A stretch of DNA of 64,000 nucleotides, taken from an uncultured archaeon. GTDB lineage: Archaea > Asgardarchaeota > Thorarchaeia > Thorarchaeales > Thorarchaeaceae. Each line of letters begins with the position of its first letter. Position 1 is the stretch's first letter. Below the pieces are notes generated by a model. That model searched no databases. It had not been told where the DNA came from and saw nothing but the letters and a program-made list of their open reading frames with translations. A program made the position numbers and the translations under genes. Shown here piece by piece: positions 9,900 through 27,669 of this stretch. Location of the stretch: contig CAYYQL010000001.1 in the NCBI GenBank assembly GCA_964473825.1, positions 32,001 to 96,000 of the forward strand. The letters run 5' to 3'.

Positions 9900-9973
9900 C
9901 CTTCTCGCAGATGGCTTGTGAAGACGCTTAGCTTAATTAGGGAAAAGGCCTGAATATGAGAGGAGATACAAAC

Positions 9974-10126: not shown

Positions 10127-10144
10127 CGTGGAAGTGACGACTAG

Positions 10145-10317
10145 GTGACTTTTCTTATAGACCCGCCCTTGCTGGTCACGTTCGGTTTCATCTCCTATGC
10201 GATTGGTGCTAGGCTACAGGATTGCACAGATCTTCCCATAGGTAAAATCCTGGCACTGTTCAGCACAGTCACAATAATCTTCACAAGCACTTCTCTGTAT
10301 CTGAACCTCTGGTACAT
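10145..10317 (+). pseudogene. 5' half of host membrane-protein gene disrupted by the element
   Basis: MTFLIDPP...LYLNLWY ends at the left direct repeat and joins in frame to the 26552 ORF. Confidence 0.85.
10308..10317 (+). repeat. attL core TCTGGTACAT
   Basis: Identical to 26544-26553. Confidence 0.9.
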
Positions 10318-10523
10318 AGCAGACAATTCCCTCTCAATATGTAACGGATAATGCCCTTTAGAGATATCATTGCGATATTTTGTGTAGATTCTACCCCCAC
10401 CCCCGTGATATATATCTCACTGAGCTCTCCGGATACCTGGTCCCTCAACTCGTTGGTAAAAGCAGAGAGCATGTCTGAGATGTTCTTGAGGAGTGCTCGG
10501 CGAGGACTCCTATAGGGAGTGGT

Positions 10524-10841
10524 TCAGTCCAGAACGTGAGAGTCGCCCATGTCAGACTCTTCTGACTTGGAGGATGCCTTGAGATGACTGATACGCGCAA
10601 CAAAATCGATATCACGGAGGAACTGAAGAACGCAGTTCTCGAACTGGTTGGCAGTTTTCTTCGTGAGGCCCGTTCCATGTGCTCTAGCGACGAGGAGTTC
10701 TATCGAGTGATCGACTGGCTGATCTCGCGCGATAAGAAGTGACTCGTTGGTAAGAAGAGAGGTCTCCTTGTCTGATGTTGCTGGGTAACTAGCGGCCAAC
10801 AGCTCGAGGGCTAGTTGCAGGGTAACGACTCGAGAATGCAT
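10524..10841 (-). CDS. Hypothetical protein (tentative)
   Basis: 105-aa ORF with no recognisable motif; overlaps repeat copies. Confidence 0.3.
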   Translation of the reverse strand: MHSRVVTLQLALELLAASYPATSDKETSLLTNESLLIARDQPVDHSIELLVARAHGTGLTKKTANQFENCVLQFLRDIDFVARISHLKASSKSEESDMGDSHVLD

Positions 10842-10847
10842 CCCTCC

Positions 10848-10867
10848 GAGTTGGCGCCCGCCAACTC
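10848..10867. repeat. Palindrome GAGTTGGCG-CC-CGCCAACTC (also 11636-11653 and 14846-14863)
   Basis: Inverted repeat read directly; two of the three copies overlap the 14-bp motif. Confidence 0.9.
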
Positions 10868-11228
10868 TCTGAGTCTTCTCTCTACGAGACTAAATAGTAC
10901 CGAGGACCTAGACCACTTGGACCACCTAGACCGGAGAGTACTCATGCTCAAGGAGATCTCATCTGAGACTGCCAGTTACCAACGAGTGAGAAGTCCGCCG
11001 TTTCTGAGCAGATAGGTATAGCTGAACCCATTTCACGGGGATAAAAATGCATGGGCCTCTCATTGGTAAGAATGCCCTTGAGAGCGTCTCTGAGACTCGG
11101 CCAATCATCAAGAGTCCTGTAGTCTGGTTCCTCACCCGGTAGCTGAGTCGTCTTCTGTGGTGCCGAGAGCGTGATTTGACCTCCTTAATAGTCCTGTAGA
11201 ATCACCTTTTGATAGGACTGTGCTGATT

Positions 11229-11510
11229 ATGACAGACAACGATGAGAGCCCGCTCCTGGTCAGGATCCCTGGACGAGATGAGGACCGGTCCGCCGCGAAG
11301 CATCCCCGGCCCCGATGTGGGATCTGTGGACGTCCAACAGTGGTCGCCACCATAGACCGGGGCAAGACCGAGAAGAAGGGGAAGAGGCCAGTGGGCCGAC
11401 CCAGGAAGGGCGCAAGATACACTCGCTACCGAAAGATCGGGAGGTACTGCGCCTATTGCGAGATCTTCTACTATCCCAACGGCACCCCTGACTACAGGTT
11501 GAGAGGCTAG
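11229..11510 (+). CDS. C4 zinc-ribbon protein with AT-hook-like motif
   Basis: CGIC...KRPVGRPRK...CAYC. Confidence 0.7.
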   Translation: MTDNDESPLLVRIPGRDEDRSAAKHPRPRCGICGRPTVVATIDRGKTEKKGKRPVGRPRKGARYTRYRKIGRYCAYCEIFYYPNGTPDYRLRG

Positions 11511-11922
11511 AGAAGAATAGCTTCTCCAAGTTCACGGGGCACGGTCTCCTGTCCTGGTGAACCTTGGTCTCCCTCGAGCATCGAGGCCCACACGTATGGA
11601 TCAACACTCGTTGGTAACTGCTGAGCAGCTGAGGAAGTTGGCGCCCGCCAACTCGTTGGTAACTGTAGAGAACATATCCATCGTCCTGCCTTACTCATAC
11701 ACTATAGCTGAAGAGCAAGAAGACGGGCGACTTTTCACTCACCCTCTGATAACAGCCTCGAAACGGCCTCTCGCGCTTGTCTACGATTCGTCTGGGCAGA
11801 CTTGGTCCAGAGAAGAATTTGCCTTCCATACGATCTCTCCGCTGAAGATTCGGCATCGGAGGGTTGTGCGAGCTCCCCGAGGTTCCCAGAAGAAGGTCTC
11901 AGAACTCGTTGGTAACTGGACG

Positions 11923-12093
11923 TCAGGTGTCCTTCTCCCTGTAGGTCGCAATGAGATCCTCGAGTCGCTTTCTGATTGCCTCTTTGACGAACTCAGCAAA
12001 GGACGTGTAGCCGAGGCCGATCTCTTCATTCTTCTTCTCAACAAGATCCCTCAAGGACTCGGGAATGCGTACCGTGATGTATTCGTCAGACAT
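11923..12093 (-). CDS. Ribbon-helix-helix (CopG/NikR-like) regulator, 56 aa (not in ORF track)
   Basis: MSDEYITVRIPESLRDLVEKKNEEIGLGYTSFAEFVKEAIRKRLEDLIATYREKDT*. Confidence 0.85.
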   Translation of the reverse strand: MSDEYITVRIPESLRDLVEKKNEEIGLGYTSFAEFVKEAIRKRLEDLIATYREKDT

Positions 12094-12184
12094 GATTCAT
12101 CCGAGACCACCGCGAGAGATAATCCCTTCCTATCAATATTGAATCACCTATGACGCAAAGGCTTAAGTATCACGGATGAATCAT
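12092..12184. promoter_or_regulatory. Divergent promoter region with 12-bp inverted repeats and a central palindrome
   Basis: ATGATTCATCCG (12092-12103) / CGGATGAATCAT (12173-12184); TCAATATTGA at 12133-12142; TATA-like TTAAGTA at 12163. Confidence 0.7.
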
Positions 12185-12186
12185 AG

Positions 12187-12351
12187 ATGGCTATGACTGA
12201 ATACAAGGGCGTCAAGATCCCGGCTGAACTGGCTGAGATCATTGACGTTAAACTGGTCAAGGAATCCGGCTACACTTCTCGAGCAGACTACATCAAGGAG
12301 TGCATCCGCAACGATCTCAGAAAGCGTGGGCTCCTGGGAGGGTCGGAGTGA
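12187..12351 (+). CDS. Ribbon-helix-helix regulator, 54 aa (not in ORF track)
   Basis: MAMTEYKGVKIPAELAEIIDVKLVKESGYTSRADYIKECIRNDLRKRGLLGGSE*; TGATG coupling to the next gene. Confidence 0.85.
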   Translation: MAMTEYKGVKIPAELAEIIDVKLVKESGYTSRADYIKECIRNDLRKRGLLGGSE

Positions 12352-12635
12352 TGCGTAGGGTCGACACCGACTACTTCTCCGTCGAGTACCCCGAGGACGT
12401 GACCTGCAGGCCCTTCGCGGTGCAGGAACCTCCGCTCCTCATGATGGTCTTTCGCAGAAGGGACGGACAGGAGATACACTTCGAGACCAAGCCCGGGGCC
12501 AGGGCCAAGACTATTCTCTTCGACAAGGACATCCTCATCATTGTTGTACGTCGCGACGCAGATACCCCCGATCTTGGCGACGGAGAGCAGGTCCCTGATA
12601 TCATCTCGAGAAGACTCTCAGGGGAGGGCAACTGA
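12351..12635 (+). CDS. Hypothetical protein
   Basis: Stop/start overlap (TGATG) on both sides; GGAGGG RBS. Confidence 0.7.
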   Translation: MRRVDTDYFSVEYPEDVTCRPFAVQEPPLLMMVFRRRDGQEIHFETKPGARAKTILFDKDILIIVVRRDADTPDLGDGEQVPDIISRRLSGEGN

Positions 12636-12988
12636 TGGACTGCTATGAGTTTTCCTCGATTTCTCGGGTATCAGACACGACCGGCTTCCATCCGATCAAG
12701 AGCGGAAGGGACTATGCCTTCGAGCCAGACAGGGAGTTCGTGACCTTCTCCCAGGAGATCAACCTCGGTAACACTCCCCTGGAGAACTGCGCTGCACTCT
12801 TGGTGAGGACTCGGAGCCCTGCCGCTGATGTCGCGAGAAGCATCAAGAAGACTGAGACCGACAGGGAGCATGCCTGGGCCGATACCTCATTCTCGAGTGC
12901 TGTGGGCCTCATCCACGTGGTCTCCGACGTGGAGGTCTCACTCTCAGTGGTCCGACCCGACCTGCTCCTGGTCTTCCTGCAGAAGTGA
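12635..12988 (+). CDS. Hypothetical protein
   Basis: 117 aa; translationally coupled; GGAGGG RBS. Confidence 0.7.
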   Translation: MDCYEFSSISRVSDTTGFHPIKSGRDYAFEPDREFVTFSQEINLGNTPLENCAALLVRTRSPAADVARSIKKTETDREHAWADTSFSSAVGLIHVVSDVEVSLSVVRPDLLLVFLQK

Positions 12989-12997
12989 TCTAGGAGG

Positions 12998-13129
12998 ATG
13001 ATGAGTCTGCCAGATCCAACAAAGCAAGAGGTCCTTGCGTGGTATCGAAAGGTCGCTCGAGAAGAAGTCAAGAAGGTCCTCGGGGAGATCAGTCCCAAGC
13101 AGCGGAGAACCCTCCAGGAGGGGATGTAG
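12998..13129 (+). CDS. Small hypothetical protein (43 aa; not in ORF track)
   Basis: AGGAGG RBS; MMSLPDPTKQEVLAWYRKVAREEVKKVLGEISPKQRRTLQEGM*. Confidence 0.6.
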   Translation: MMSLPDPTKQEVLAWYRKVAREEVKKVLGEISPKQRRTLQEGM

Positions 13130-13130
13130 T

Positions 13131-13472
13131 GTGGAGCGGCCTGATTCTATCTCTATTGCGAAGGGCCATGTTGCTCCTGCGAATAGCCTACAGAACAAGC
13201 AGCCACTCTGTCAATCCTGTGCCAAGCGACACTTCTGCAACCAGTTCGTCTGGCAAGTTGCTCCCATGACTACCTGTGAGATGCGGATAGCCTATAGCCT
13301 GTCCTCAGAGTTATGGCTTCTATGGCTCTACCATCTTGCTCCACTCTGCCATGAATGCGCTATCTACCTGGACTGCGAGGAAGAATGCTGCGAAGAGTAC
13401 CACGATCCCCCGGCGGTCTGGTATCTCATGCTTGCCTATTCGTGGCTTGAGAAGTACAAGGAGGAGAACTAG
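13131..13472 (+). CDS. Cys-rich putative metal-binding protein
   Basis: GTG after GGAGGGG; duplicated PLCxxC motif (PLCQSCAKRHFC / PLCHECAIYLDC). Confidence 0.6.
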   Translation: MERPDSISIAKGHVAPANSLQNKQPLCQSCAKRHFCNQFVWQVAPMTTCEMRIAYSLSSELWLLWLYHLAPLCHECAIYLDCEEECCEEYHDPPAVWYLMLAYSWLEKYKEEN

Positions 13473-14444
13473 ATGCAGGTACTGGTCAGGAATCAACATC
13501 TCTGCACCGAGTGTGGAGCTCCCCTCATCTCCCACAATGGGGCTCTCGTCTGCAGAGAGTGTGGTCTCGAGCACAGACGCGAACTGGTCCCAGGGACATT
13601 CAAGATCGGGGAGTCCATTGACTACGGCGAGGACTACTCCGCAAGCAGGTCGACGTCCGTCAACGATGCAGATGTCCTCGTAGATGGTGATGGTCTCGGG
13701 ACTTATATCTCCAGCTCGGTGAGAATGAGCTCCAGTTACCAACGAGCCAAGATCTACCGACTGCAGCAGCTCAATCGTCGCATCGCCTTGAAGCACCTGG
13801 AGCAAGAACGCAAGGTCCTTGTCTGGCTGGGTCGCTACGCCTCTGAGCTCGGACTCTCAGGCCAGATAGTGAGAAGAGCCAAGCATCTCTGCAAGCAGGC
13901 AATGAGACGCCTTCAGCAGGTCGGCGACGAGTTCAACAACTGCAGTCTGAACCGGGTCATCCTGGGCTGCTCTTCAACGATCTTCGCAGCTCGAGAGGCA
14001 AGAGTCCCGATGGATCCCCAGGAGATCATTGACGTCTGGGCCCAGCGTCATCGGGTCACTCTCTGCAACGTCAGGAAGGGCCTGTACTGGATCCAGAAAC
14101 AGACAGGGATTCCGTTCTCCTTCTCGAGGCCGATCGATTATGTTGACAAGACGGTCTCCGAGCTCAGGGCCTGCAATGAACTGATGGAACGAATCAGTGA
14201 CAGGGGACTTGATCTAGAGCGACTGATGCAGAGGCTGCGGCAAGATCTCAGCATGATTCTCAGTGCTACTCCCTCGGTTGTCTATCAGGGACGAAAGCCC
14301 TCAACCCTGACCCCAGCCCTTGCGTACGTTCTGCTGAAACGGCAGTGTGTCGGGGTGAGCCAGAAGGTGGTCGCTAGGGCCTGCGGAATCAGCTACCTGA
14401 CAATGCGGTACGGCTCTAGCCTTTGGAGGGAATACCTGAGATGA
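13473..14444 (+). CDS. tfb: Divergent transcription initiation factor IIB (TFB) homologue
   Basis: N-terminal CxxC..VCxxCG zinc ribbon; cyclin-repeat motifs GRKPSTL and SQKVVARACGISYLTMR. Confidence 0.8.
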   Translation: MQVLVRNQHLCTECGAPLISHNGALVCRECGLEHRRELVPGTFKIGESIDYGEDYSASRSTSVNDADVLVDGDGLGTYISSSVRMSSSYQRAKIYRLQQLNRRIALKHLEQERKVLVWLGRYASELGLSGQIVRRAKHLCKQAMRRLQQVGDEFNNCSLNRVILGCSSTIFAAREARVPMDPQEIIDVWAQRHRVTLCNVRKGLYWIQKQTGIPFSFSRPIDYVDKTVSELRACNELMERISDRGLDLERLMQRLRQDLSMILSATPSVVYQGRKPSTLTPALAYVLLKRQCVGVSQKVVARACGISYLTMRYGSSLWREYLR

Positions 14445-14641
14445 CGATCAGGATCATCGGTCGGGAGCAGGTGGTCTGTGACTGCACCGGCAACACCTCT
14501 GAGACCTACCAGGACAGGCTTCTGGTGGGCATATCCCACAGCAGGGACAGCATTATCGTCCGGGTGTTCTGTCCCGAGTGCGACGCGACCCGTGATTTCA
14601 CCATCAGGAGTGGTCTGCACCTGGACTGGATGTCTCACTAG
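14441..14641 (+). CDS. Small zinc-finger protein
   Basis: ATGA overlap with the TFB stop; CDC...CPEC. Confidence 0.65.
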   Translation: MTIRIIGREQVVCDCTGNTSETYQDRLLVGISHSRDSIIVRVFCPECDATRDFTIRSGLHLDWMSH

Positions 14642-14925
14642 TTACCAACGAGTTGAACCGACCAGGAGAGATTTCCTCCCTGGCGGGAATTCGCTCTATC
14701 GAGCGAGGTGATGAATGGGAACTGACGGACCTGGAGTACACTGTCATGCTCTCGGCCTCTCTCAGCTAGAACAGGCGGTTTCAGATCGCCCTCTCCTATT
14801 TCTTGAGATGGTGCTTAGCCAGAGGTCACGTCGACCAGCTTGACAAGTTGGCGCGCGCCAACTCGTTGGTAACTTGAAACAGCTGCAGAAGTTAGCGCGC
14901 CAAGTGTCAGAGGATAAAAGGGGGG

Positions 14926-15381
14926 CTAATCAGGTATTCTACTGGACGAAGACACATCAGATACATTCGTTGATGAAACAACATAGACGGGCTCTTGGAA
15001 CTGGTTAATGCGAGATGATCTGACAACCCTTGATACGATTAGTCTGACCTTCAGAATGTCTCCATTCTCCAGTCGATGTGTATTCCACACTTCCTTAACT
15101 GGCTCGAAATCAACCATTGTCCGAGTTTCTTCAATTCCTTCCTCTTCAGACAAGGCAAGTGATTTTGCTTCTTTGGATACTCTCACACTGGTGACATTGG
15201 TAGCAGCATAGGCAATAAGAGGTCCGCCCGATATCTTGAGCTGGTGGGTGTCGAAGACTTTGAATACGATGGGTCTGATTCTCATCCTCGAACCATCTAC
15301 TAAATCATATTCATTCCATCCTTCATGGATGGGTTCGAAATCAAGTTCTGTAGCTTCTTCGCTGAGTTTCCTTATCTCCAA
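14926..15381 (-). CDS. Hypothetical protein with an internal tandem domain duplication
   Basis: DFEPIHEGWNEYDLVDGSRMRIRPIV / DFEPVKEVWNTHRLENGDILKVRLIV. Confidence 0.8.
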   Translation of the reverse strand: MEIRKLSEEATELDFEPIHEGWNEYDLVDGSRMRIRPIVFKVFDTHQLKISGGPLIAYAATNVTSVRVSKEAKSLALSEEEGIEETRTMVDFEPVKEVWNTHRLENGDILKVRLIVSRVVRSSRINQFQEPVYVVSSTNVSDVSSSSRIPD

Positions 15382-15383
15382 TG

Positions 15384-15947
15384 CTATCCTCTCATCTTGT
15401 TTGCCTTCACATCATAAATCTTGATTGGATGTGTGTCTGACCAGAATCCCTTGTCAAATGTGGCCAGATAGTCACATCCGAAGTAGCATGCAAGCGAAAT
15501 ATGGAATGCATCGTTTCCACCAATCCCCACCAGCTTCTGGTTCGAGCCTCTCATGGCGACACGGTAGTTGGAATTCCTTAGCTGGTCCAGACCAAGCTCT
15601 AGCACTGCCCATACAAGGGGAGCATTTCTTCCTAGAATTGACAGCTCAAACTGAGTACCTGAAACAAACTCAAGATTCTTTAGAGCCATGATCTTTCCGA
15701 CTCCTTGTACTACATCCTGCTCAATGACTCCATAGTTCGTGTAGTTCTTGCGGACACAAGCTTTCCGAATGACGCTAATCATCTCCATCAATGCCCAAGT
15801 TGAAACAATCCCTGTTGCTGTTCCTTGTGCTATCTGCTGAAAGAAAGCCTTAGTGGCTCGTCTATCTCTACTGCGTCCGTAGCCGCTGAGATAGTTTAGA
15901 AGGACCGATGTATCGATGTAACAGAAACCGGCGGGAATCGAAGACAT
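15384..15947 (-). CDS. PIN-domain (VapC-like) nuclease
   Basis: YIDTSVL, STWALMEM, NDAFH and LATFDKGF acidic PIN motifs. Confidence 0.88.
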   Translation of the reverse strand: MSSIPAGFCYIDTSVLLNYLSGYGRSRDRRATKAFFQQIAQGTATGIVSTWALMEMISVIRKACVRKNYTNYGVIEQDVVQGVGKIMALKNLEFVSGTQFELSILGRNAPLVWAVLELGLDQLRNSNYRVAMRGSNQKLVGIGGNDAFHISLACYFGCDYLATFDKGFWSDTHPIKIYDVKANKMRG

Positions 15948-15960
15948 CCTTTCTCCCTCT

Positions 15961-16359
15961 CTACTTGAGTCTGACCTCTCTCAGCAGGTCCTCGACAGTC
16001 TTATCTTCCTCTCCATCGAATAGATGGGCAAGTGAGCCAAACCCATCTTCAATTGATTCAAAGCATGGATGAGGTAAGGGTCTATCCCCGGCTATAATCC
16101 TCCAGATGCGTTGTCTGCTGTGCTCGGCAACACGCCGTCCCTCTACGGACGTAGTTAGTGAATATGTAGGAACTATGGACACCTGTAGTTGAAGCATGGA
16201 GAAATGTTGTCTTGAATCGGTAGAGCACTCGACAGGATTCTGGGTTTCTTCAGGAGCAACTCGGACTAGAACGCAGTCCATCAGGTTCTCCGACGTTTCC
16301 GGGGATATCTGAAGAATGGATTCATTTTGTTCTTTTGAAACCAGCACTGGACCCACCAC
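15961..16359 (-). CDS. Hypothetical protein, putative antitoxin
   Basis: Directly upstream of PIN; acidic tail FGSLAHLFDGEEDKTVEDLLREVR; BRE/TATA-like GAAAAACCCTTTTATC upstream. Confidence 0.5.
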   Translation of the reverse strand: MVGPVLVSKEQNESILQISPETSENLMDCVLVRVAPEETQNPVECSTDSRQHFSMLQLQVSIVPTYSLTTSVEGRRVAEHSRQRIWRIIAGDRPLPHPCFESIEDGFGSLAHLFDGEEDKTVEDLLREVRLK

Positions 16360-16578
16360 CAGGAGTACCTCTCCGAATTCTAGTATGCCTTCCTCAGATA
16401 AAAGGGTTTTTCGTCAGGGCAATCAGGTCAACCCTATTAGAATCCACAGTGTATCCAGTACCCTATCCACCTTGACCAAGAACTAGAGGGCACTCCTGCT
16501 TGAATGGTCACAGGACTATTCAACTCGTTGGTAACTACGACTTGAGGTTGTTAAAAGGCATTGGCACTACTAGAGACC

Positions 16579-17289
16579 ATGAGTCTAACAGGTGGGATCT
16601 ATCGAACCCAGGATGAGAATGCGAATCTCCTGACGGTGATCTACATCGTCGCTGGTGCATTGACTGCGACCTTCTCGGCTCGAGCAGTCATGAATGACCC
16701 TACTCAGCTCAGCCGATGGCTACTCTTCTTGGTGTGGCTGGCATTGGGCATCAGTATCGCTGCACTCATCGGCGTGCAGGCTCGACCCGAGCGGGTCATC
16801 GGAGAGGGCTTTGCTCTCTCGATTGGTATCATAGGCTACTCGGTCATCATGGTGATCCAGTACTGCATGGTGCTGGTCTCGGCCTTCATGCCCTTCTCCC
16901 AGATGAACTTCTACTTCGCGATTTTGGCCCCGATATCGGAGACCTTCTTTTTCACGGTCACGCTGTACAGGATCATCCGCGTGGCCCTTCCTGCCTTCAC
17001 CTGGCTCTTCTCGAACCTGATCTCGTCGATTACCTTCGCGCTGTATCACTACTTCGTCTATGGTCTGGACCCGATTTCGCTCATCGTCCTCTTCTTGGGC
17101 AACACCGTCCTCAACTACACCTTTGAACTGACGAAGAACCCTGCAGCACCCATCACGGCACATCTCCTCGTGAATCTGACGCCCTACTGGTGGGACGTCG
17201 CGGGTCTCTTGGTTGCCAACTGGTGGATGATTGCACTCCCGATCTTCCTCACTGTGGTGTGCATCATCTGCGGCGGGACCCGGCGCTAG
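16579..17289 (+). CDS. CPBP/CAAX (Abi) family intramembrane protease-like protein
   Basis: Multi-TM; APISET, FALYH and HLLVN motifs (motif 1 degenerate). Confidence 0.75.
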   Translation: MSLTGGIYRTQDENANLLTVIYIVAGALTATFSARAVMNDPTQLSRWLLFLVWLALGISIAALIGVQARPERVIGEGFALSIGIIGYSVIMVIQYCMVLVSAFMPFSQMNFYFAILAPISETFFFTVTLYRIIRVALPAFTWLFSNLISSITFALYHYFVYGLDPISLIVLFLGNTVLNYTFELTKNPAAPITAHLLVNLTPYWWDVAGLLVANWWMIALPIFLTVVCIICGGTRR

Positions 17290-17814
17290 TTACCAACGAG
17301 TGGACTGAGACCGTCCTCTCATCTCCTTGCTTCATGTTGCTCAGTAACTACTGGCCAGTTACCAACGAGTCAGAAGAAGCGATTCTCGACCTGTGACACT
17401 GTCTTGTTGCTCCCCTCAGCATTCAACAGTGACGAAGTTATTAAGAATCGGTCATATCTTGATAGTGTGACCTAAGGTGCTTCTTGACCCAGAGAGCGGG
17501 AGGGACCGCTGCTATCTGTTCTCTATGTTTGACACCACTGAGAGTGGTGGTAGTCTAGACACTTCAGGGAGTCGGTGTCAACCACTGAGATTTTCGCGAA
17601 AAACGAGAATCCGTCTACACCCTTCTCTTCATTGGCGCGGAGGAGATGGGGCAGGGGATCTCTGGGGACAGGTGGGAGGGCTGGAGGGGAACGGGAGCGC
17701 CAGGGACCAGGAGCGGAGGGGCGAGAGGGCGGTGGTGGGGGCGCCATGAAATTTTTGCGGAGGAGGGGGAGTGTAGACGATTAACTATGAAGAATCTCAA
17801 GGAGACGATAGACG

Positions 17815-18102: not shown

Positions 18103-18104
18103 CT

Positions 18105-19631: not shown

Positions 19632-21826
19632 CCATCGAAGACCTCGGAGACAGCATCGAGCTAGACGCGAACAACCTCGCAGTGAGGATAGCCCTATCTG
19701 TCGAGCAAGACGGCGGGTTCCTCTTCCACGACGGAGGAGAGCCCTATGTCCACATGGCCGACAACGGTCGGTCTGAGATCACCCACCTTCGCAACGCGCG
19801 TTTCCGCAGTATGCTAACTCATAAGTCGATGAGATATGAGGGGCTACCCGCAGGGAAGGAAACCGTCGAGAACGCAATCCGAATCCTAGAGGCTGTCGCG
19901 CTGTTCAGTAGTCCAGAGATCCGGTTGCATAACCGGGTTGCCATGCAGGACGGGGGTATCTACTTCGACCTCTCAGACATGGGGGGCCGATGTGTACATA
20001 TCACGCCGGACGGCTGGGAGATTGAGAAGGCGCCTATCCTCTTCAGGCGATACAAGCACCAACGCCCGGCGGTCCTTCCAAGCAAGAGCGAGCGTCCCAT
20101 CAAGGAACGACTGGAGAGCTTCTTGGAGCTGGTCAACTATGACCGCGACACCGAGCTCTTGCACCTGGTTGAGCTGGTCTTCAGCTTTGTCCCTGACGTC
20201 CCGCATCCTATCCCGGTTGTGTACGGGCAACAGGGCTCTGCGAAGTCCTCATTCTTCAGAGTCTGGGGTCGCCTGGTTGACCCCTCAGACCTTGAGGATG
20301 CGGTGCTTCCGCGCAAGGAGGTCGAGATGATCCAGAAGCTGGAGCACCACTGGTTTCTTGCTTTTGATAACGTTTCTAAGCTGTGGGAGTGGCAATCTGA
20401 CGATCTGTGTCGCGCAGCCACCGGCACCGGGTTCTCAAAGCGCAAGCTCTACAGTGACGATGAGGATATCATCTATAAGTACAAGAGAGTCGTGGGACTC
20501 AATGGTATCAATGTCGCAGCCGAGAGACCGGACCTTCTGGACCGGTCGATACTGCATGAGTTCCCCGAGATACCCCTAGAGGACCGGATGGAAGAGCGCG
20601 AGATCTGGGAGAGGTTCGAACGGGCTGCACCTGATATCATGGGTGCAATCTTTGACGCACTCTCTGAGGCATTACGAATACTGCCTACTGTAAATCTTAC
20701 CGGCCTCTACCGAATGGCGGACTTCACACGGTGGGGTTGTGCCATAGCCGAGGCCATTGGCTACAGCCAACAGGACTTTCTGAATGAGTATTGCAACAAC
20801 ATCAACACGCAGAACACGGAGGCCTTGGAGAACAACCCGGTCGGTACTGCAGTACTGTCGTTCTGGAATAGCCTGGACCTGATTGACGAACGGTGGAGAA
20901 ATACCCCGACCCAGGCGTACCAGACCCTGACAAAACACGCCGAGGGACTCGATATCAAGGTGTCCGGGAAGGACTGGCCGAAGAGCCCCGCAGCCATGAG
21001 TCGGGAACTAAACCGCCTCAAGACGAACCTCAAGAAGGAGGGGATCCTGTTCGAACGGCCACGAGAGGGGAATGTCCGATACTGGCAACTGAGCCCCGTA
21101 GAAGGTTCCGAGTATGTCGTCACAGTCGTCATGTCGTCACAGAGCAGCGCAGAAGGCGAAATTCCGCCTTCTAACGATGACGATACTTGTGACGATATTA
21201 GCGATACCCGAGAATGTCGTCATAATGTCGTCACCGAGAACGGGCCCGAAACGGCCTCTCCTGATGATTGTGACGCTGTGACGACAATGACGATAAAGTC
21301 GGAAACACTTGGGGGCACCCCGGAAGAGCTCAGAGCCTTCGTGGGTAAGGACCAGTACTCAGTCAGGTTCCTGATAGGTCGCGGTTTCAGCCTTGGAACG
21401 ATGCAGGAGCTACACAGTCAGGGACGAGGAGAGATCGTCAGGGTCGGATCTGGTGAGATACACTTCAGACTGACAGAGAATGGCCGTCAACAGCCTTGTG
21501 AACCGGAGACGCGGTCGCGTCAACCACTACTGAATAGCGCCGGGAACCCAGATCATGACGGTCAAACGGCGGACGTGGACAACCCGGGGATCTCGAGCAC
21601 CACACCCAGACTCTTCGAGCAATTTCTCGACTGGCTCAAGGCTCACGGCCTCGATATGCGAGGTAAGGCGATCACGCGACAGGAGATAGAGGCCTTCTGG
21701 CATGGCCCAGATAAGCAGCTGCATGACTGGATGTTCAAGGCACTCGATGAAAACTACATTAGAGAAGTGGAACCCGGCGTCTATTGCTGGGACACCCGGG
21801 CAACGCGGGAGGGGGTGGTCTCCTGA
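19628..21826 (+). CDS. P-loop ATPase / putative replicative helicase (SF3/Cch-like) with C-terminal wH domain
   Basis: Walker A GQQGSAKS, Walker B LAFDN, RKLYSD, LNGI, DLLDR. Confidence 0.75.
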   Translation: MTIEDLGDSIELDANNLAVRIALSVEQDGGFLFHDGGEPYVHMADNGRSEITHLRNARFRSMLTHKSMRYEGLPAGKETVENAIRILEAVALFSSPEIRLHNRVAMQDGGIYFDLSDMGGRCVHITPDGWEIEKAPILFRRYKHQRPAVLPSKSERPIKERLESFLELVNYDRDTELLHLVELVFSFVPDVPHPIPVVYGQQGSAKSSFFRVWGRLVDPSDLEDAVLPRKEVEMIQKLEHHWFLAFDNVSKLWEWQSDDLCRAATGTGFSKRKLYSDDEDIIYKYKRVVGLNGINVAAERPDLLDRSILHEFPEIPLEDRMEEREIWERFERAAPDIMGAIFDALSEALRILPTVNLTGLYRMADFTRWGCAIAEAIGYSQQDFLNEYCNNINTQNTEALENNPVGTAVLSFWNSLDLIDERWRNTPTQAYQTLTKHAEGLDIKVSGKDWPKSPAAMSRELNRLKTNLKKEGILFERPREGNVRYWQLSPVEGSEYVVTVVMSSQSSAEGEIPPSNDDDTCDDISDTRECRHNVVTENGPETASPDDCDAVTTMTIKSETLGGTPEELRAFVGKDQYSVRFLIGRGFSLGTMQELHSQGRGEIVRVGSGEIHFRLTENGRQQPCEPETRSRQPLLNSAGNPDHDGQTADVDNPGISSTTPRLFEQFLDWLKAHGLDMRGKAITRQEIEAFWHGPDKQLHDWMFKALDENYIREVEPGVYCWDTRATREGVVS
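21116..21294. repeat. Intragenic heptamer array (GTCGTCA / TGACGAY), candidate iteron origin
   Basis: About 10 copies in two facing sets, plus hairpin AGAAGGCG...CGCCTTCT at 21151-21172. Confidence 0.6.
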
Positions 21827-21886
21827 TGTCTGCGGCAGAGAAGGAGAGTCTCAAGCCTCTTGTCCGCGCAAAGGGGATTGAGAAAC

Positions 21887-22612
21887 CTACTTGGGATCCA
21901 GACCATCCCGTCCATGTCGTTCGAGGGGATCTACATACATGGCTTCTTCGAGTTTCCAAATCCTAGAGAATTGCTGCTCTAGATGCGCCTGGTATTGAAT
22001 GAAGAACCACTCAAGGTATCTGTCAAGATCGTGACGTCGTATCAGTTTCTTGACAACAAACTGTGCCTCAAGCGGAACCAGATTCTCCTTTGCCAGATCT
22101 GAATGCCACGGTGGCAATCTCGCGGGAGGAATCACCAAGTATGTGAGGAAGGTTCGCTCAAAAGCGTCTTGATATACTTCTTGGTCTGCGAGTTCCTCGG
22201 GATACTCTCCCTCCCAGTGAATCATCCGTTTGACGGTGATCTGTAGCACATGTAGCACATCAGAGAGCATCAGTGTAATTGTAGCCTCGTTCCCCGGACC
22301 GATCGAGTTGAAGACAGCAAATACACGCGGGAAAAGACCCTTCCAATGGTCGGCCAGTAGTATAGTTGCAGGATTATCGCTGATTGCCAATGCATGAATT
22401 AGGCCTCGATGTGTCAAGGAGAGAAGGTCAGATGGGTGAGTATGGGGCTGCAAATCATGGACTCCGTAATCACCGGTTACCAATTTCTTCTCTTTGAGCA
22501 ATCCCGCTGCTCGGGAGGCATTAGACACGCCACCCATTCGATTCCCAATAGAAGACCCCTGAAGGGCCAGATGTAGCAGCATGGCCTTCTCGTCCTTTGT
22601 TTTATCATACAT
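21887..22612 (-). CDS. Hypothetical protein with probable N-terminal winged HTH (repressor-like position)
   Basis: 241 aa; LKEKKLV...LSLTHRGL wing motif; divergent from an RHH gene. Confidence 0.6.
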   Translation of the reverse strand: MYDKTKDEKAMLLHLALQGSSIGNRMGGVSNASRAAGLLKEKKLVTGDYGVHDLQPHTHPSDLLSLTHRGLIHALAISDNPATILLADHWKGLFPRVFAVFNSIGPGNEATITLMLSDVLHVLQITVKRMIHWEGEYPEELADQEVYQDAFERTFLTYLVIPPARLPPWHSDLAKENLVPLEAQFVVKKLIRRHDLDRYLEWFFIQYQAHLEQQFSRIWKLEEAMYVDPLERHGRDGLDPK

Positions 22613-22689
22613 TAGAAGTTATACACCTCGCGCCTTACTTCTGTAGAGCATCTAACTGGTTAATAATACTTACTGCATGGCTTGTATTC

Positions 22690-22899
22690 ATGAAAGATAG
22701 TATTGTCACGAGCTTTCGCTTGTCTAGGGATACTCACAGTCTGGTTTCTCAGGTGTGTGAGAGCAGGAGCGAAACCCTGGGCACTTTCATCCGCAGAGCA
22801 ATTCTGAAAGAACTCGCGAATCTGAGTTTTCTCCCCGATGAGCAGAAGAAGGCTCTGGGTATCGAAGTCCCAGACGAGGCGTCTACAGGAGGGCAGTGA
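22690..22899 (+). CDS. Ribbon-helix-helix protein
   Basis: VTSFRLSRDTHSLV...TLGTFIRRAILKEL. Confidence 0.8.
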   Translation: MKDSIVTSFRLSRDTHSLVSQVCESRSETLGTFIRRAILKELANLSFLPDEQKKALGIEVPDEASTGGQ

Positions 22900-22902
22900 T
22901 CT

Positions 22903-23217
22903 GTGGATGCCTACAACGAGGCCAACCTAGCGGTGCTCCGCGAGAAAGCAGAACTTGCAGACCAGAGAGCCGAGGAGGTCCAACGTCTTCAGCAACAGAT
23001 CATCCGCATGGCAGCAACCAACAATACTCTCGAGAGCGAGCTCAAGGCTCTTCGCAAGAATGCTGAGCTCCTGGCGGTCGAAGATGCTTGGATCCGGGAC
23101 GGCTCATCGGCCTATGACTTCTGTGGCTGCGGCGGCAAGAAGAAGACCTGCTATGAGATCATCATGACGGAGTGCCTGGAATGCGGAGAGGAGATCCGGG
23201 CCTTTCCCGATGAGTAG
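22903..23217 (+). CDS. Coiled-coil plus zinc-ribbon protein
   Basis: Heptad-rich N-terminus; CGC...CLEC; GGAGG RBS. Confidence 0.7.
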   Translation: MDAYNEANLAVLREKAELADQRAEEVQRLQQQIIRMAATNNTLESELKALRKNAELLAVEDAWIRDGSSAYDFCGCGGKKKTCYEIIMTECLECGEEIRAFPDE

Positions 23218-23228
23218 GGGGAGAGAGA

Positions 23229-23366
23229 GTGAATAACACAGCTGAGACCCCGATGCGGGATCTTGTTCTGCAGATCATGAGAGAGACCCGAAAGCAGTGC
23301 AGCCGAGAGGAGTTCCAGGAGCTGCTAGACGAGTTTGAGACCATGCTCGACGAGGTCGAGGAATAG
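23229..23366 (+). CDS. Small acidic hypothetical protein (45 aa; not in ORF track)
   Basis: Purine-rich RBS; fills the operon gap; MNNTAETPMRDLVLQIMRE...DEVEE*. Confidence 0.55.
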   Translation: MNNTAETPMRDLVLQIMRETRKQCSREEFQELLDEFETMLDEVEE

Positions 23367-23382
23367 GAGGTCTTGCACACGC

Positions 23383-23619
23383 ATGAGTAATGACATCATC
23401 GAACGCCTAGACTTTGACCCCGGCGACTGGAACTACATCAAGTCGCGAGAAGACCTGATTGAGGAGCTTCGCGACTACAAGCGCGAGTTCCAGATCAATG
23501 AGTGGACTGAGGAAACGATCAGCCACTTCCTGCAGCTCAAGGACTGGCTCATCAGCCAGGGCCCACATCTGCGACATATCAGGACCCTCTACACGATCCT
23601 GTCGGAGGTCGACCTCTAG
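23383..23619 (+). CDS. Hypothetical protein
   Basis: AGGAGG RBS; abuts the helicase start. Confidence 0.65.
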   Translation: MSNDIIERLDFDPGDWNYIKSREDLIEELRDYKREFQINEWTEETISHFLQLKDWLISQGPHLRHIRTLYTILSEVDL

Positions 23620-25329
23620 ATGCCGGAGATAACGGACAAGCGAATACTGAGTATTCCTGCAGATGTACGAAAATTCGTAGATGTGGAAAGGTGCCAGAGT
23701 ATTCCTTCTTCTGTCTACCCTGTCTCCGAGGACTTGCCGGAAATCTCTCTGGATGAGGTCGCCGACGTACTTAGCTCCACAATTGCCAAGGACTGGACCA
23801 CAAAACTCGTCACCTTTATGGTCCTGTTGCTGACCTACACACACGAGGATCAGACAGGAATTCTCTATCAGGCTGGGTCCAGCACCGGCAAGTCACATAA
23901 TGCACTTGAAGTCACAAAGGGATACTTCCCGGCAGAGGATGTTATTAAGAAGGACTATGCCTCTCCAACTGCGTTCTTTCACAAGCAGACTGAGCTATGC
24001 GTTCGCAGCCGCGACGACTGTTTCTATCCTGTCCTCTCGAAGCGAGAGTATGTCAATCGCCAGATGCAAGAGTGGGATAAGGCAAATCCCAAACCAGAAG
24101 AACGGGGAGAGAAGACAGAGCACAGAAACCATCGGAATGCTGCGAAGGGGAGGTTCGCCGACGAGTGGGATAGCCTAGAGAAAGTGTGGTTCTGGGATTT
24201 ATCACGTAGAATTCTTCTCTTCAAAGATATGCCTCATGACCTGGTTTTGGCGAATCTGAGACCTTTGATTTCGAAAGACGAGCAATACTTTGAAGCAGAT
24301 ATCACGGACAAGAGTACATCTGGGCAACATGCCACTAAGACCATCGTTCTGAAGGGTTTCTCTACCTTCCTCTTCTGTTCTGCGTCATACTCTCAGGATG
24401 AGCAGGAACGCACACGATTCTTTCTACTTAGTCCCGAGGTCCAGAGTGAGAAAATCAAGGCGGGAGTCAGAATGGCAATTCAGCGTTCCTGCAATCGCCC
24501 TAGATTCGAGGGGAATATTAGAAAAGATGAGAGGAGGGCAGCACTTCGAGAGCGTGTTCTCAGCATTCGCGCAGCATCTATCACAGACGTAATCATTCCT
24601 GATGACCTCACGCAAGAGATTGAGAACAGAATCTTCGACGAACATGATAGCCTGCAACCACGTCTCATGCGAGATGCCCCCAGGATGATTGCCCTTATGA
24701 AAGCTCACGCACTTCTGAACTTCTCGAACCGGCAACAGAGAAACGGCATCATCGTAGCGACGGAGCGCGATGTCCAGGTTGGCTACGAGCTCTATAGACC
24801 CATTGCTGAAGCAAACGAGAGAGGAGTACCGCCTCAGGTCTATGACTTCTACGAGAAGCGACTAGAACCTTCGATTAGGGCCAAAGCAGAAGAGGACGGT
24901 ATCCAGGGAATCTCCAGAAAGGACTTTGTCCGTCTCTGGTTTGATGAATTCAATGAGCAGATTGGCTACAAACGCATGGTAGAGATTCTCCATCTCATGG
25001 ACAACGCCGGACTTGCATCTGAGAGAGAGAATCCAGCAGACAAGCGCGAGAAGCTGATATATATCCCTGGGGGTGGGGTAGAATCTGCACAAAAAGAAGC
25101 AATGCCTTCAGCGCCTTTTGACAGGTTTCTCTCATGGCTGATCACTCATGGTCTGGATATGCGAGGTAAGACGGTCTCGAGGGCTGAGATCGCCTCAGCA
25201 TGGGAAGAGTCTGATGAGAAGCTGAATGACTACCTCTTCAAGGCCCTGGACGAGGAATACCTGAGAGAGACCGAACCAGGCGTCTATCACTGGGGGTCGA
25301 GAGCCACGAAAGAGGGAATCGTGGACTGA
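23620..25329 (+). CDS. Divergent MCM-like AAA+ helicase with C-terminal wH domain
   Basis: Walker A GSSTGKS, ILLFKD, arginine finger RTRF, sensor-2 R in MRDAPR, MCM-like AHALL..ATERDV. Confidence 0.7.
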   Translation: MPEITDKRILSIPADVRKFVDVERCQSIPSSVYPVSEDLPEISLDEVADVLSSTIAKDWTTKLVTFMVLLLTYTHEDQTGILYQAGSSTGKSHNALEVTKGYFPAEDVIKKDYASPTAFFHKQTELCVRSRDDCFYPVLSKREYVNRQMQEWDKANPKPEERGEKTEHRNHRNAAKGRFADEWDSLEKVWFWDLSRRILLFKDMPHDLVLANLRPLISKDEQYFEADITDKSTSGQHATKTIVLKGFSTFLFCSASYSQDEQERTRFFLLSPEVQSEKIKAGVRMAIQRSCNRPRFEGNIRKDERRAALRERVLSIRAASITDVIIPDDLTQEIENRIFDEHDSLQPRLMRDAPRMIALMKAHALLNFSNRQQRNGIIVATERDVQVGYELYRPIAEANERGVPPQVYDFYEKRLEPSIRAKAEEDGIQGISRKDFVRLWFDEFNEQIGYKRMVEILHLMDNAGLASERENPADKREKLIYIPGGGVESAQKEAMPSAPFDRFLSWLITHGLDMRGKTVSRAEIASAWEESDEKLNDYLFKALDEEYLRETEPGVYHWGSRATKEGIVD

Positions 25330-25331
25330 GA

Positions 25332-26474
25332 TCAGTCAGACTTCTCTCGTTGCTCCTTCGCGTACGCCTTGGCAAAGGCCTCAGCAAAGCTCTGCATGAG
25401 CTCGGGGTCTTCCTTGATCTGTGAAACGATCATCTGACCCGCGGAGTCAGTCGCGAGAGCCTTGTCCTGCAGCGTGTTGCAGTTGGGACAGTACTGCGAG
25501 TCTGCGCCGATTATGAAACCACAGTTCCAGCACTTGACCCTCTTCTTGACCTCGCGTTCCTGGACAATCCCAAGCGCCTCAAGCTCCTCCCTCTCATAGT
25601 CCTGGTCGAAGTACTGATGGTAGTGCTGCTCGAACACTTTTGAGTCCCGGGTATGCCCAAGCCTTCTCCTGATTGCGGAGTCCGTCAGAAGATCCTCATT
25701 CTTCCAGTGGGTTGAGGCCGACTTTCTGAACAGCGTTGCGTAGAGCTCCATGCCAAGGACTCTGCTTGCCCGCCGGTAGGCATCCGAGATATCGTGGGGT
25801 TGGATCCTGTTCCCCTTGCCATTGACAAAGAGTGGGCCGGTTCCCTTATGCGTTCGATAGTAGAACTGGAACCATTGAAGCCCTAGCTCGGTGATCATCC
25901 GCAGGGCTCGAGTCTTGGTCTTGGAGTCCTGGATGTGAAGGACATAGCCATGCTGGTCCCTGATCACGTCGTCATAGTCCAGGCTACAGAGCTCGGACGG
26001 TCTCATGCCGGTGTCCCAGAGGACTGCAGTTATCGCCTTCCAGACATGGGTGTAGTGATAGTCAATCACTCGTTCCACGTCCTCAGGAGTCAGGAGGTCC
26101 TTTGCCGTCTTGACTCGCCTGGCAGTCCTGGACCGGGACTTGAGCATGTCTTTGTAGGGCTCTTTGGATGCATCTATCCCGTGGAACCCAAGCCAGTATC
26201 GCAGGCCTTGGGCTGCAGTGTTGAAAGTGTTGTTGGAGACCCTACCCCGCTTGAGCTGATTGCCTCCCTCTGAGAATGTCCTTGAGACCTTGTAGTTGAG
26301 TCGTCTGGTCAGGACTCCCCTGATATCGTCGGGAGAGGGTCTCTTCAGGGGTAGATCGAAGTAGGTCAGTAGAGCCCTGATCGCATCAGTGTTGGTCTTG
26401 ATGGATCTCTCTCGAGCCTGACCACCGACCTCAGCCCGGAGGTAGTCTCCGAATCTGTCCAGTGTTGCCTGCAT
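25332..26474 (-). CDS. int: Tyrosine recombinase/integrase with C-terminal zinc ribbon
   Basis: DTGMRPSEL, SKT, TLFRKS, LGH, HYHQY; CWNC...CPNC; 70 bp from attR. Confidence 0.93.
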   Translation of the reverse strand: MQATLDRFGDYLRAEVGGQARERSIKTNTDAIRALLTYFDLPLKRPSPDDIRGVLTRRLNYKVSRTFSEGGNQLKRGRVSNNTFNTAAQGLRYWLGFHGIDASKEPYKDMLKSRSRTARRVKTAKDLLTPEDVERVIDYHYTHVWKAITAVLWDTGMRPSELCSLDYDDVIRDQHGYVLHIQDSKTKTRALRMITELGLQWFQFYYRTHKGTGPLFVNGKGNRIQPHDISDAYRRASRVLGMELYATLFRKSASTHWKNEDLLTDSAIRRRLGHTRDSKVFEQHYHQYFDQDYEREELEALGIVQEREVKKRVKCWNCGFIIGADSQYCPNCNTLQDKALATDSAGQMIVSQIKEDPELMQSFAEAFAKAYAKEQREKSD

Positions 26475-26543
26475 TGAATCACCAGGATACCAAGGACAAC
26501 GGTCTCAGATAAGTCTTTCATGTTCAGGTTTAGTTATGTCTTA

Positions 26544-26553
26544 TCTGGTACAT
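26544..26553 (+). repeat. attR core TCTGGTACAT
   Basis: Identical to 10308-10317. Confidence 0.9.
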
Positions 26554-26743
26554 GGATTGGTTCTGGATACCCTTCTATCCAGCCGTGACATCGGGGAGGG
26601 ATCTCATGATTAACTCTGGCATCTTTTCTCTTGAAGCTGTGAACACTCAAGGCATAATTGACGTCTTGGCCATGTTACAGATTGCCCTCTATCCTCTCTG
26701 GGTCATCTTAGGCACGCAGGCCTATCGGCGGCATAATCGTTAG
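26544..26743 (+). pseudogene. 3' half of the disrupted host membrane-protein gene
   Basis: WY-MDWFWIPFYP...YRRHNR* continues the 10145 frame across the att site. Confidence 0.85.
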
Positions 26744-27578: not shown

Positions 27579-27669
27579 CGTCCAAGTCCTCATCCGAACA
27601 ACTAACATGCATTCAGAGAGTAGGCTTTCAGAAGAAAGAAGTAGGGGGAGAGTGTCCCCCATGCAGTGA

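What the first reader, a model, noticed from the sequence alone, without database searches (positions are those of the whole stretch)
10145..26743. Element inserted into a protein-coding gene; excision would restore it exactly
Seen: joining at TCTGGTACAT gives ...LYLNL-WY-MDWFWIPFYP..., an uninterrupted 120-aa membrane protein with no stop in either half, which suggests a recent or still reversible insertion. Established: archaeal tyrosine integrases of the SSV, pNOB8 and SNJ2 types mostly target tRNA genes and use longer att repeats. Here the core is 10 bp and the target is disrupted. Inference: integration knocks out a membrane protein (possible receptor or exclusion effect) or acts as an excision-controlled switch. 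The predicted attP has only weak TGTCT/AGACA dyad symmetry.
Basis: partly seen in the sequence, partly recalled or inferred. Interest (0 to 1): 0.72.

Follow-up and report, generated by a model that had tools for sequence, protein, structure and literature searches.

The report
Mobile element splitting a Thorarchaeal membrane-protein gene
A 16.2-kb mobile element carrying its own integrase sits in the middle of a small conserved membrane-protein gene of a Thorarchaeota (Asgard) genome, and a sister species has the same gene uninterrupted; this is a clean but ordinary kind of event.

Summary
TCTGGTACAT occurs only twice in the window (10308-10317 and 26544-26553), in the same codon phase. It flanks a 16,226-bp, GC-richer element.

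Joining the flanks at the repeat gives a 120-aa ORF. That ORF aligns without gaps to an intact gene in a same-genus genome, G002 (N-half 88% and C-half 85% identity). All 22 other Thorarchaeaceae genomes that carry the gene have it in one frame, two of them cut by a contig end.

The element encodes an intact tyrosine integrase 70 bp from attR, two replicative-helicase-family ATPases, a TFIIB-like protein, a PIN protein and a CPBP protease. No virion genes were recognised. It has no terminal inverted repeats.

Two relatives of the integrase also sit at short cores in or next to protein-coding genes. One is at a 3' stop codon, with the empty site present in this very genome. The other is in a 5' region, where a second, diverged copy of the gene's 5' part lies beside the insertion. 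Both of those insertions leave the gene whole; this one does not.

The literature already reports short att sites and integration into coding regions in archaea, so this is a new member of a known kind. The proposed excision switch is untested. No attP or attB junction was found in the public contigs searched.

The scan had noted this same stretch in an overlapping window, but not on other DNA.

The parts
10145..10317 (+). N-terminal half (codons 1-57) of the disrupted 120-aa membrane-protein gene. The ORF runs 11 codons into the element and stops at 10351.
   Evidence: 88% identical to the G002 orthologue; row in alignment A1.
10308..10317 (+). attL core, TCTGGTACAT
   Evidence: junction defined against the G002 empty site.
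10318..26543 (.). Integrated element, 16,226 bp, GC about 0.55 in most 1-kb bins against about 0.48 in the flanks. Single copy in this genome.
26544..26553 (+). attR core, TCTGGTACAT
26552..26743 (+). C-terminal half (codons 58-120 plus stop) of the disrupted gene. Its first codon is the gene's own Met58.
25332..26474 (-). Tyrosine integrase, 380 aa, intact, with a C-terminal CxxC...CxxC zinc ribbon. Its start codon lies 70 bp from attR.
   Evidence: Pfam PF00589 at 57.9 bits (cut-off 27.1); phrog_1 integrase; P. abyssi XerA 4a8e at 4.7e-11; catalytic R, K, TxxR, H and Y conserved in the family alignment.
23620..25329 (+). 569-aa P-loop ATPase of a family often fused to PrimPol or PriCT primase domains; ends in a wHTH-like domain shared with the 732-aa protein.
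   Evidence: syntenic in L043, L044 and L045.
19628..21826 (+). 732-aa replicative-helicase-family protein
   Evidence: More than 1,200 homologues, many fused to PrimPol, PriCT_1, Toprim or zf-CHC2 domains; 26% identical to the helicase/primase of Microbacterium phage Zeta1847.
18574..19631 (+). 112-aa and 240-aa genes shared with the related G002 element
   Evidence: 52-63% identity by tblastx; phrog_22961, function unknown.
13473..14444 (+). TFIIB-like protein (Zn ribbon plus cyclin-like region) encoded by the element
   Evidence: NCBIfam PRK00423 at 4e-11 over positions 12-296 of 312, well below the curated cut-off; phrog_20431; 47-70% identical in the G002 element.
15384..15947 (-). PIN-domain protein inside a low-GC, minus-strand module
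   Evidence: Pfam PF01850 at 5e-7; GC 0.459 over 15001-16000.
16561..17289 (+). CPBP/Rce1-like intramembrane protease
   Evidence: Pfam PF02517 at 5.5e-10.
22597..22899 (+). RHH-like small regulator, syntenic with the ATPase in related contigs
   Evidence: Weak Pfam RHH_7 hit; conserved in L043-L045.
9956..10126 (+). Host 56-aa small membrane-protein gene directly upstream of the target; conserved in G002 and G159

Best explanation
This is a plasmid-like integrative element of a Thorarchaeota archaeon (a virus is not excluded). It entered the chromosome by site-specific recombination catalysed by its own tyrosine integrase. The integrase gene stays whole after integration. The attP core lies about 70 bp upstream of the integrase start codon. 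attP and attB share only the 10 bp TCTGGTACAT. Strand exchange is inferred to occur in a 6-8-bp overlap inside that block, plausibly TGGTACA, which in attP is flanked by imperfect inverted arms (TGTCTTATC and TAGCAGACA, 6 of 9 positions symmetric). attB lies on the most conserved motif (LNLWYMDWFW) of a 120-aa, three-TM membrane protein of unknown function. Integration cuts the gene after codon 57, between TM2 and the next helix. The N fragment gains 11 foreign codons and then stops. The C fragment is cut off from its promoter and from TM1-2. The gene is therefore most likely inactivated, as a by-product of target choice. It is an accessory gene, found in 23 of 86 family genomes. Shown here: the junctions, the empty site, the intact integrase and the replication genes. 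Inferred: the exchange positions, loss of gene function, and the capacity to excise.
For: The core occurs only twice in the window and is in phase at both copies. The rebuilt gene matches the G002 empty site without a gap. The gene is unsplit in every other genome that has it. The element is GC-richer than its flanks. The integrase domain and catalytic residues are present. Helicase-family replication genes are present. There are no terminal inverted repeats: 16 of 80 positions match. Two family members show the same layout, with the core within roughly 20-70 bp of the int start. One is the G002 element, with a 14-bp core and its empty site in G000:C24:21102-21115. The other is the G159 mini-element, with a roughly 16-bp core. 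The target's dN/dS of 0.18 equals that of intact neighbours, and both cores are identical, which fits a recent insertion. The att core is identical in G002 and differs by one base in G001.
Against: No excised circle (attP) and no conspecific empty site (attB) was found in the MAG, in JGI metagenome contigs or in IMG/VR, so mobility today is not shown. No excisionase was identified. The H of the HxxR motif is T in this integrase. Most element genes have no known family, so the virus-or-plasmid question stays open. Loss of target function is inferred only; a split protein could conceivably still assemble.
Confidence: 0.8

Rival explanations
1. Reversible genetic switch ('active lysogeny'): the element excises under particular conditions to restore the membrane-protein gene and then reintegrates, as described for some bacterial prophages and for the cyanobacterial nifD element.
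For: Exact in-frame restoration is possible. The integrase is intact. Both halves are undecayed, with dN/dS 0.17 and 0.19. The insertion is mid-gene, whereas the two mapped relatives leave their target gene whole.
Against: There is no evidence of excision anywhere. Only one of 23 genomes carrying the gene has the insertion, so no conserved host-element partnership is visible. The target's function is unknown. Lack of decay is equally explained by a recent insertion.
Confidence: 0.08
2. Immobile remnant: the element integrated once and can no longer excise. The gene is simply a pseudogene in two pieces.
For: No attP or attB junctions were found in the searched collections. No recognisable excisionase. 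The HxxR histidine is replaced by T.
Against: The integrase ORF is full length with R, K, R, H and Y conserved. The long element ORFs are open. Both cores are identical. The gene halves show no relaxation of selection relative to neighbours.
Confidence: 0.08
3. A transposon or casposon-like element that made a 10-bp target-site duplication rather than recombining at a shared core.
For: A short direct repeat flanking an insertion is also what a target-site duplication looks like. attB and attP arms outside the 10 bp are dissimilar.
Against: No terminal inverted repeats (16 of 80 matches). No transposase or Cas1 in the Pfam, PHROGs or NCBIfam scans. A tyrosine integrase lies 70 bp from the repeat, in the same layout as in two relatives whose cores differ by 1-2 bases between copies, which a fresh duplication would not explain.
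Confidence: 0.02
4. Assembly chimera: an episomal contig wrongly joined into the chromosome contig.
For: The genome is a metagenome-assembled genome of 103 contigs.
Against: A 10-bp overlap is far shorter than assembler k-mers. Two independent junctions fall at the same phase of one gene. The same architecture is seen for related elements in two other genomes.
Confidence: 0.02

Closest known systems
Integrated mobile elements of Thaumarchaeota that use protein-coding genes (Krupovic et al. 2019, PMC6563490)
   Same: Archaeal elements borne by tyrosine recombinases. att sites are short (8-26 bp, median 17). 14 of 68 sites lie in protein-coding genes. Sites were verified by comparison with empty sites in relatives. 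Gene content is of the cryptic, plasmid-like type, with primase or helicase genes.
   Different: Those insertions are in the 3'-distal part of the gene, and the ORF is kept or rebuilt. Here the cut falls at codon 57 of 120 and nothing replaces the lost half. The host phylum and the integrase family also differ.
Atabeyarchaeia (Asgard) integrative elements such as Yucahu-i (PMC11529989)
   Same: An Asgard host, a tyrosine integrase, an 11-bp att motif, an SF3-type helicase, and a size of 10-40 kb.
   Different: For Yucahu-i, excision and circular forms were shown by read mapping; none are shown here. No gene disruption was reported in the passages read. No close relative of the integrase or the 732-aa helicase turned up in IMG/VR viral contigs.
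pNOB8-type archaeal integrases (review PMC8371274)
   Same: The int gene stays intact on integration. Most members of this Thorarchaeal family carry the R...YxxR...Y signature.
   Different: This copy has TxxR. All 13 aligned members carry a C-terminal zinc ribbon. Targets are protein-coding genes with 10-16-bp cores rather than tRNA genes with long att sites. The phylogenetic relation to pNOB8 Int was not tested.
Bacterial gene-interrupting elements that excise precisely (the nifD element with XisA; prophages acting as regulatory switches).
   Same: A tyrosine recombinase, a core of about 11 bp, a mid-gene insertion, and exact restoration on excision.
   Different: In those systems regulated excision and the function of the restored gene are demonstrated. 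Here neither is known, and the host is an archaeon.

Membership tests
Tyrosine recombinase / phage integrase superfamily | Catalytic domain PF00589 above the curated threshold | tested here: met
   57.9 bits against a cut-off of 27.1; phrog_1 at 6.8e-20; XerA 4a8e at 4.7e-11.
Tyrosine recombinase / phage integrase superfamily | Catalytic residues R, K, HxxR, H/W and the Y nucleophile | tested here: met
   R (GMRPSE), K (SKTK), R (LFRK), H (LGH) and Y (EQHY) are conserved across 13 family members. The HxxR histidine is T here and Y in most relatives.
pNOB8-type (non-suicidal) archaeal integrases | attP lies outside the int ORF, so int is intact in the integrated state | tested here: met
   The 380-aa ORF is whole. 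The frame closes at 26505-26507, before the core at 26544.
pNOB8-type (non-suicidal) archaeal integrases | R...YxxR...Y signature (PMC8371274) | tested here: inconclusive
   Ten of 13 family members have YxxR. This copy and its two closest relatives have TxxR. No tree including pNOB8 Int was built.
SSV-type ('suicidal') integrases | attP inside the int gene, so integration splits int | tested here: not met
   int is unsplit. Reading the reconstructed attP junction in all frames gives no ORF that continues into int.
SNJ2-type integrases | Integrase working with small accessory proteins at a tRNA-gene att site (PMC5861418; abstract and the review's mention only) | not tested
   The target here is not a tRNA gene: no tRNA in the window and no Rfam hit. 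Accessory proteins were not compared.
Thaumarchaeal-style integration into protein-coding genes | Short att (8-26 bp) verified against an empty site | tested here: met
   10-bp core; empty site in G002.
Thaumarchaeal-style integration into protein-coding genes | 3'-distal position with the ORF preserved or rebuilt | tested here: not met
   The cut is at codon 57 of 120. No element-borne copy of either half was found. The G002 and G159 relatives do preserve their target gene.
Prophage or element regulatory switch (active lysogeny) | Precise excision restores a functional gene | tested here: met
   Met in silico only: the rebuilt gene matches the orthologue without gaps and in frame.
Prophage or element regulatory switch (active lysogeny) | Excision occurs and is regulated, and the restored gene is needed under that condition | not testable with these tools
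   No reads or cultures available. No attP or attB in the searched contigs.
Transposon / casposon | Terminal inverted repeats plus a transposase or Cas1 | tested here: not met
   16 of 80 end positions match. No such domain in the Pfam, PHROGs or NCBIfam scans.
Provirus | Capsid, portal, terminase or other virion genes | tested here: inconclusive
   None recognised by Pfam, PHROGs or NCBIfam, but most ORFs are orphans. No structure-based search of element proteins was run.

The most novel reading that the evidence does not exclude
The element is a reversible, integrase-driven on/off switch for a conserved Thorarchaeal membrane protein. That would be the first 'active lysogeny'-type gene switch in an Asgard archaeon. 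It would belong to a lineage-specific family of zinc-ribbon integrases that targets protein-coding genes rather than tRNA genes.
Probability: 0.08. Interest if true: 0.7.

Novelty: new member of a known kind. Interest (0 to 1): 0.38.

Why it matters
Few integrated elements of Asgard archaea have mapped borders, and the papers I searched held none for Thorarchaeota. This locus gives base-exact att sites for one element. With the two relatives found here, it outlines a Thorarchaeaceae-restricted integrase family with a C-terminal zinc ribbon. That family uses 10-16-bp cores at the 5' end, the middle or the 3' end of protein-coding genes. This helps in delimiting mobile DNA in Asgard MAGs and offers three attP/attB pairs for biochemical tests. 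The gene disruption itself is a common outcome of site-specific integration and is not surprising.

Tried and rejected
- **Junction searches.** Exact attP and attB junctions were sought in the MAG, in JGI metagenome contigs and in IMG/VR. None was found.
- **Close relatives in IMG/VR.** The integrase and the 732-aa helicase gave no hits.
- **Same target in relatives.** No related integrase lies within about 1.5 kb of a piece of this target gene.
- **SSV-type split integrase.** Rejected: a stop closes the int frame before the core, and no ORF reads through attP into int.
- **Target-site duplication.** Rejected for lack of inverted ends and of a transposase.
- **Function of the target.** No Pfam or NCBIfam family. 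Protein-atlas scores were 0.86 or lower, to unnamed bacterial clusters. The AlphaFold model (pLDDT 76.7, three long helices and two short ones) has no PDB fold match at E<=0.001.
- **G001:C278.** This holds a second, diverged copy of the C-half at a contig start, but host codons continue upstream of the core, so it is a contig break and not a junction.
- **Spacers and paralogues.** None matching the element elsewhere in G000.
- **RNA.** No Rfam family across 9500-27500. The 61-nt block conserved with G002 does not fold better than shuffles.
- **Defence.** PADLOC found no defence family for the PIN, CPBP or ATPase proteins.
Full report
**1.

TCTGGTACAT is present exactly twice in the window, at 10308-10317 and 26544-26553, both on the + strand (0.12 expected; no shuffle of 100 gave two). 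The ORF 10145-10351 encodes 57 residues that end in ...LYLNLWY, then 11 unrelated residues and a stop. The ORF 26552-26743 starts with MDWFWIPFYP. Reading, both repeat copies begin at the second position of a codon, so joining them keeps the frame and gives a 120-codon gene.

**2. An empty site exists**

The window is G000:C1:32001-96000. Record titles of the relatives name them Candidatus Thorarchaeota.

- Searches with each half in 41 related genomes found both halves abutting in one open frame in 12 further genomes. In the same-genus genome G002 that frame is exactly 120 aa, with 88% (N-half) and 85% (C-half) identity.
- A DNA alignment of the rebuilt site against G002 has no gap across the gene and stays conserved into both flanks. 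553 of 664 columns are identical, and the only gap is in the downstream intergenic stretch. G002 carries the same 10-mer at the junction.
- Across 86 Thorarchaeaceae species genomes, 23 carry the gene. G000 is the only one in which it is split. Two partial extra matches lie at contig ends.
- The 5.8-billion-protein collection holds 35 full-length homologues of 113-170 aa, mostly 119-125 aa, nearly all labelled Thorarchaeota.
- In their alignment (A1, mean column identity 67%) the core falls on the conserved LYLN-x-WYMDWFW motif.

**3. What was inserted**

The 16,226 bp between the cores have GC of about 0.55 in most 1-kb bins, against about 0.48 in the flanks. The element encodes:

- **Integrase**, 25332-26474 (-), starting 70 bp from attR. 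It hits PF00589 at 57.9 bits, phrog_1, and P. abyssi XerA (PDB 4a8e) as the best solved relative.
- **Two P-loop ATPases**, 732 aa (19628-21826) and 569 aa (23620-25329). Their many homologues are often fused to PrimPol, PriCT_1, Toprim or zf-CHC2 primase domains. The only phage-collection match of the 732-aa protein is annotated as a helicase/primase. They are best read as replication proteins.
- **TFIIB-like protein**, 13473-14444.
- **PIN-domain protein**, 15384-15947, and a **CPBP/Rce1-like protease**, 16561-17289.
- **RHH-like small proteins**.

The rest are orphans in Pfam, PHROGs, NCBIfam and PADLOC. No capsid, portal or terminase gene was recognised. I call the element plasmid-like and cannot exclude a virus.

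The element ends are not inverted repeats (16 of 80 positions match). The window holds no tRNA gene and no Rfam family. The element has no second copy and no spacer match in G000.

**4. The integrase family and its other sites**

At E<=1e-20 the integrase has relatives in 12 of 76 Thorarchaeaceae genomes and in none of the other 224 genomes sampled from the phylum. The best relative is 46% identical. An alignment of 13 members conserves R, K, [Y/T]xxR, H, the Y nucleophile, and a C-terminal CxxC...CxxC zinc ribbon. This copy has TxxR, whereas most members have YxxR, the signature the review PMC8371274 gives for pNOB8-type integrases.

Two members could be mapped.

- **G002 element.** G002:C1:~460,066-470,807 is a 10.7-kb element that shares the RHH gene, the TFIIB-like gene and the 112-aa plus 240-aa genes with ours. 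It is flanked by ATTATGTTTGTATT and ATTATGTTTGCATT. Its flanks, 90% identical, are contiguous in G000:C24 and overlap at 21102-21115, so G000 holds the empty site. The core overlaps by one base the stop codon of a 312-aa gene, which stays whole.
- **G159 mini-element.** G159:C17 holds a 2.55-kb mini-element in a stretch syntenic with the window's left flank. It has a 403-aa integrase of the same architecture. It sits between TGCTTTACGGAGGAGA and TGCTCTACGGAGGGGA, in the 5' part of a gene that I read by eye as radical-SAM-like and that is orthologous to window 7645-8790. About 170 nt of that gene's 5' part is present twice, at 74% identity, and a whole gene remains.

In all three elements the core lies within roughly 20-70 bp upstream of the int start. 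The family thus uses short cores at protein-coding genes. Of the three mapped sites, only the one under study destroys its target.

Partial relatives of the right arm (RHH, ATPase, integrase fragment) occur on metagenome contigs L042-L045, but those contigs end before the att site.

**5. Mechanism**

*Shown:* the junctions, the 10-bp identity, the intact integrase, and the absence of transposon features.

*Inferred from established tyrosine-recombinase chemistry* (a 6-8-bp overlap region flanked by inverted core-type binding sites; PMC8371274):

- Exchange occurs inside the 10 bp, plausibly in TGGTACA.
- In the reconstructed attP this spacer is flanked by TGTCTTATC and TAGCAGACA, symmetric at 6 of 9 positions.
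- The corresponding attB arms are symmetric at only 3 of 9 positions and share little with attP (read).

The AlphaFold model of the target (pLDDT 76.7) has helices at 7-23, 32-52, 56-65, 72-77 and 90-119. The cut therefore falls just after the second long helix. The N fragment ends after 11 foreign codons. The C fragment keeps its own Met58 codon but has lost its promoter and the first two helices. Loss of function is likely but not shown.

On the minus strand of the circular form, int would lie downstream of the small left-end ORFs across attP. Integration may therefore uncouple int from their promoter; this is inference only.

**6. Age**

Between the rebuilt gene and G002, dN/dS is 0.18 (N-half 0.17, C-half 0.19; dS 0.38). 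The intact neighbours give 0.19 and 0.07. There are no stops or frameshifts, and the two cores are identical. The insertion is therefore young relative to the split of the two species, or the halves are still under selection. These data cannot tell the two apart.

**7. Tests of mobility**

No attP or attB junction occurs in the MAG, in JGI metagenome contigs or in IMG/VR. No conspecific intact allele is in the protein collection; the best C-half match there is 76% identical. Excision today is therefore unproven.

**8. Comparison with what is known**

- Thaumarchaeal integrated elements have att sites of 8-26 bp, and 14 of 68 lie in the 3'-distal part of protein-coding genes (PMC6563490).
- An Atabeyarchaeia element uses an 11-bp att (PMC11529989).
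- The review PMC8371274 lists further archaeal att sites in coding regions: BJ1, Msmi-Pro1 and NitGar-E6.

Neither the short core nor a protein-gene target is new. What is particular here is the mid-gene, non-restoring position, the Thorarchaeal host, and the zinc-ribbon integrase family. My paper searches found no described Thorarchaeal integrated element. I rate the finding a new member of a known kind. The switch hypothesis remains possible but has no evidence specific to it.

Noticed in passing
window 10446-18541: A 15-16-nt motif, CAACTCGTTGGTAACT, and its reverse complement occur more than ten times in the element's left and central parts. Two perfect direct copies (14859-14874 and 16521-16536) bracket the low-GC, minus-strand module that holds the PIN gene. 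That layout looks like a cassette boundary (GC). Other first-stage notes already cover this motif.
   Followed up: partly
window 10368-10416 and 25056-25104: A 49-nt inverted repeat, 82% complementary. The small minus-strand ORF at the element's left end (10472-10281, which reads across attL) carries a copy of the linker region of the 569-aa ATPase (EIYITGVGVESTQNIAM against LIYIPGGGVESAQKEAM). This may be a trace of recombination between related elements.
   Followed up: partly
G002:C1:~460066-470807 (L046/L047); empty site at G000:C24:21102-21115: A related 10.7-kb element in the sister species, flanked by a 14-bp core (13 of 14 identical). It abuts the stop codon of a 312-aa gene. The site is unoccupied in the window's own genome.
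   Followed up: yes
L048 (G159:C17) 14361-17073: A 2.55-kb mini-element (integrase plus a few small ORFs) inserted in the 5' part of the orthologue of window 7645-8790. About 170 nt of that gene's 5' part is present twice, at 74% identity, so a whole gene remains.
   Followed up: yes
L048 19438-19607 compared with window 10126-27673: G159 lacks both the 120-aa target gene and the neighbouring 168-aa gene (27072-27578), although synteny holds on both sides. The pair behaves as an accessory indel.
   Followed up: partly
window 21809-21869: A 61-nt stretch just after the helicase stop codon is 93% identical to G002:C1:469512-469572, next to that element's integrase. It is far better conserved than the surrounding DNA. 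It does not fold better than shuffled sequence.
   Followed up: partly
window 19628-21826 and 23620-25329: The two ATPases end in the same wHTH-like domain of about 70 aa (FLDWLKAHGLDMRGK... against FLSWLITHGLDMRGK...), seen by eye. Another first-stage note also reports this.
   Followed up: no
window 17815-18102 and 18105-18374: Two tandem paralogous small genes (NLDEATAEVFALLAEQRRRTGTF... and NLEEAYQEVLSILEEQRRRMGTF...). One has a counterpart on the related contig L043.
   Followed up: no
window 14926-15381 (-): The 151-aa protein downstream of the PIN gene is an internal duplication of two units of about 75 aa (FEPIHEGWNEYDL... and FEPVKEVWNTHRL...). The DNA repeat is at 15082-15113 and 15313-15344.
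   Followed up: no
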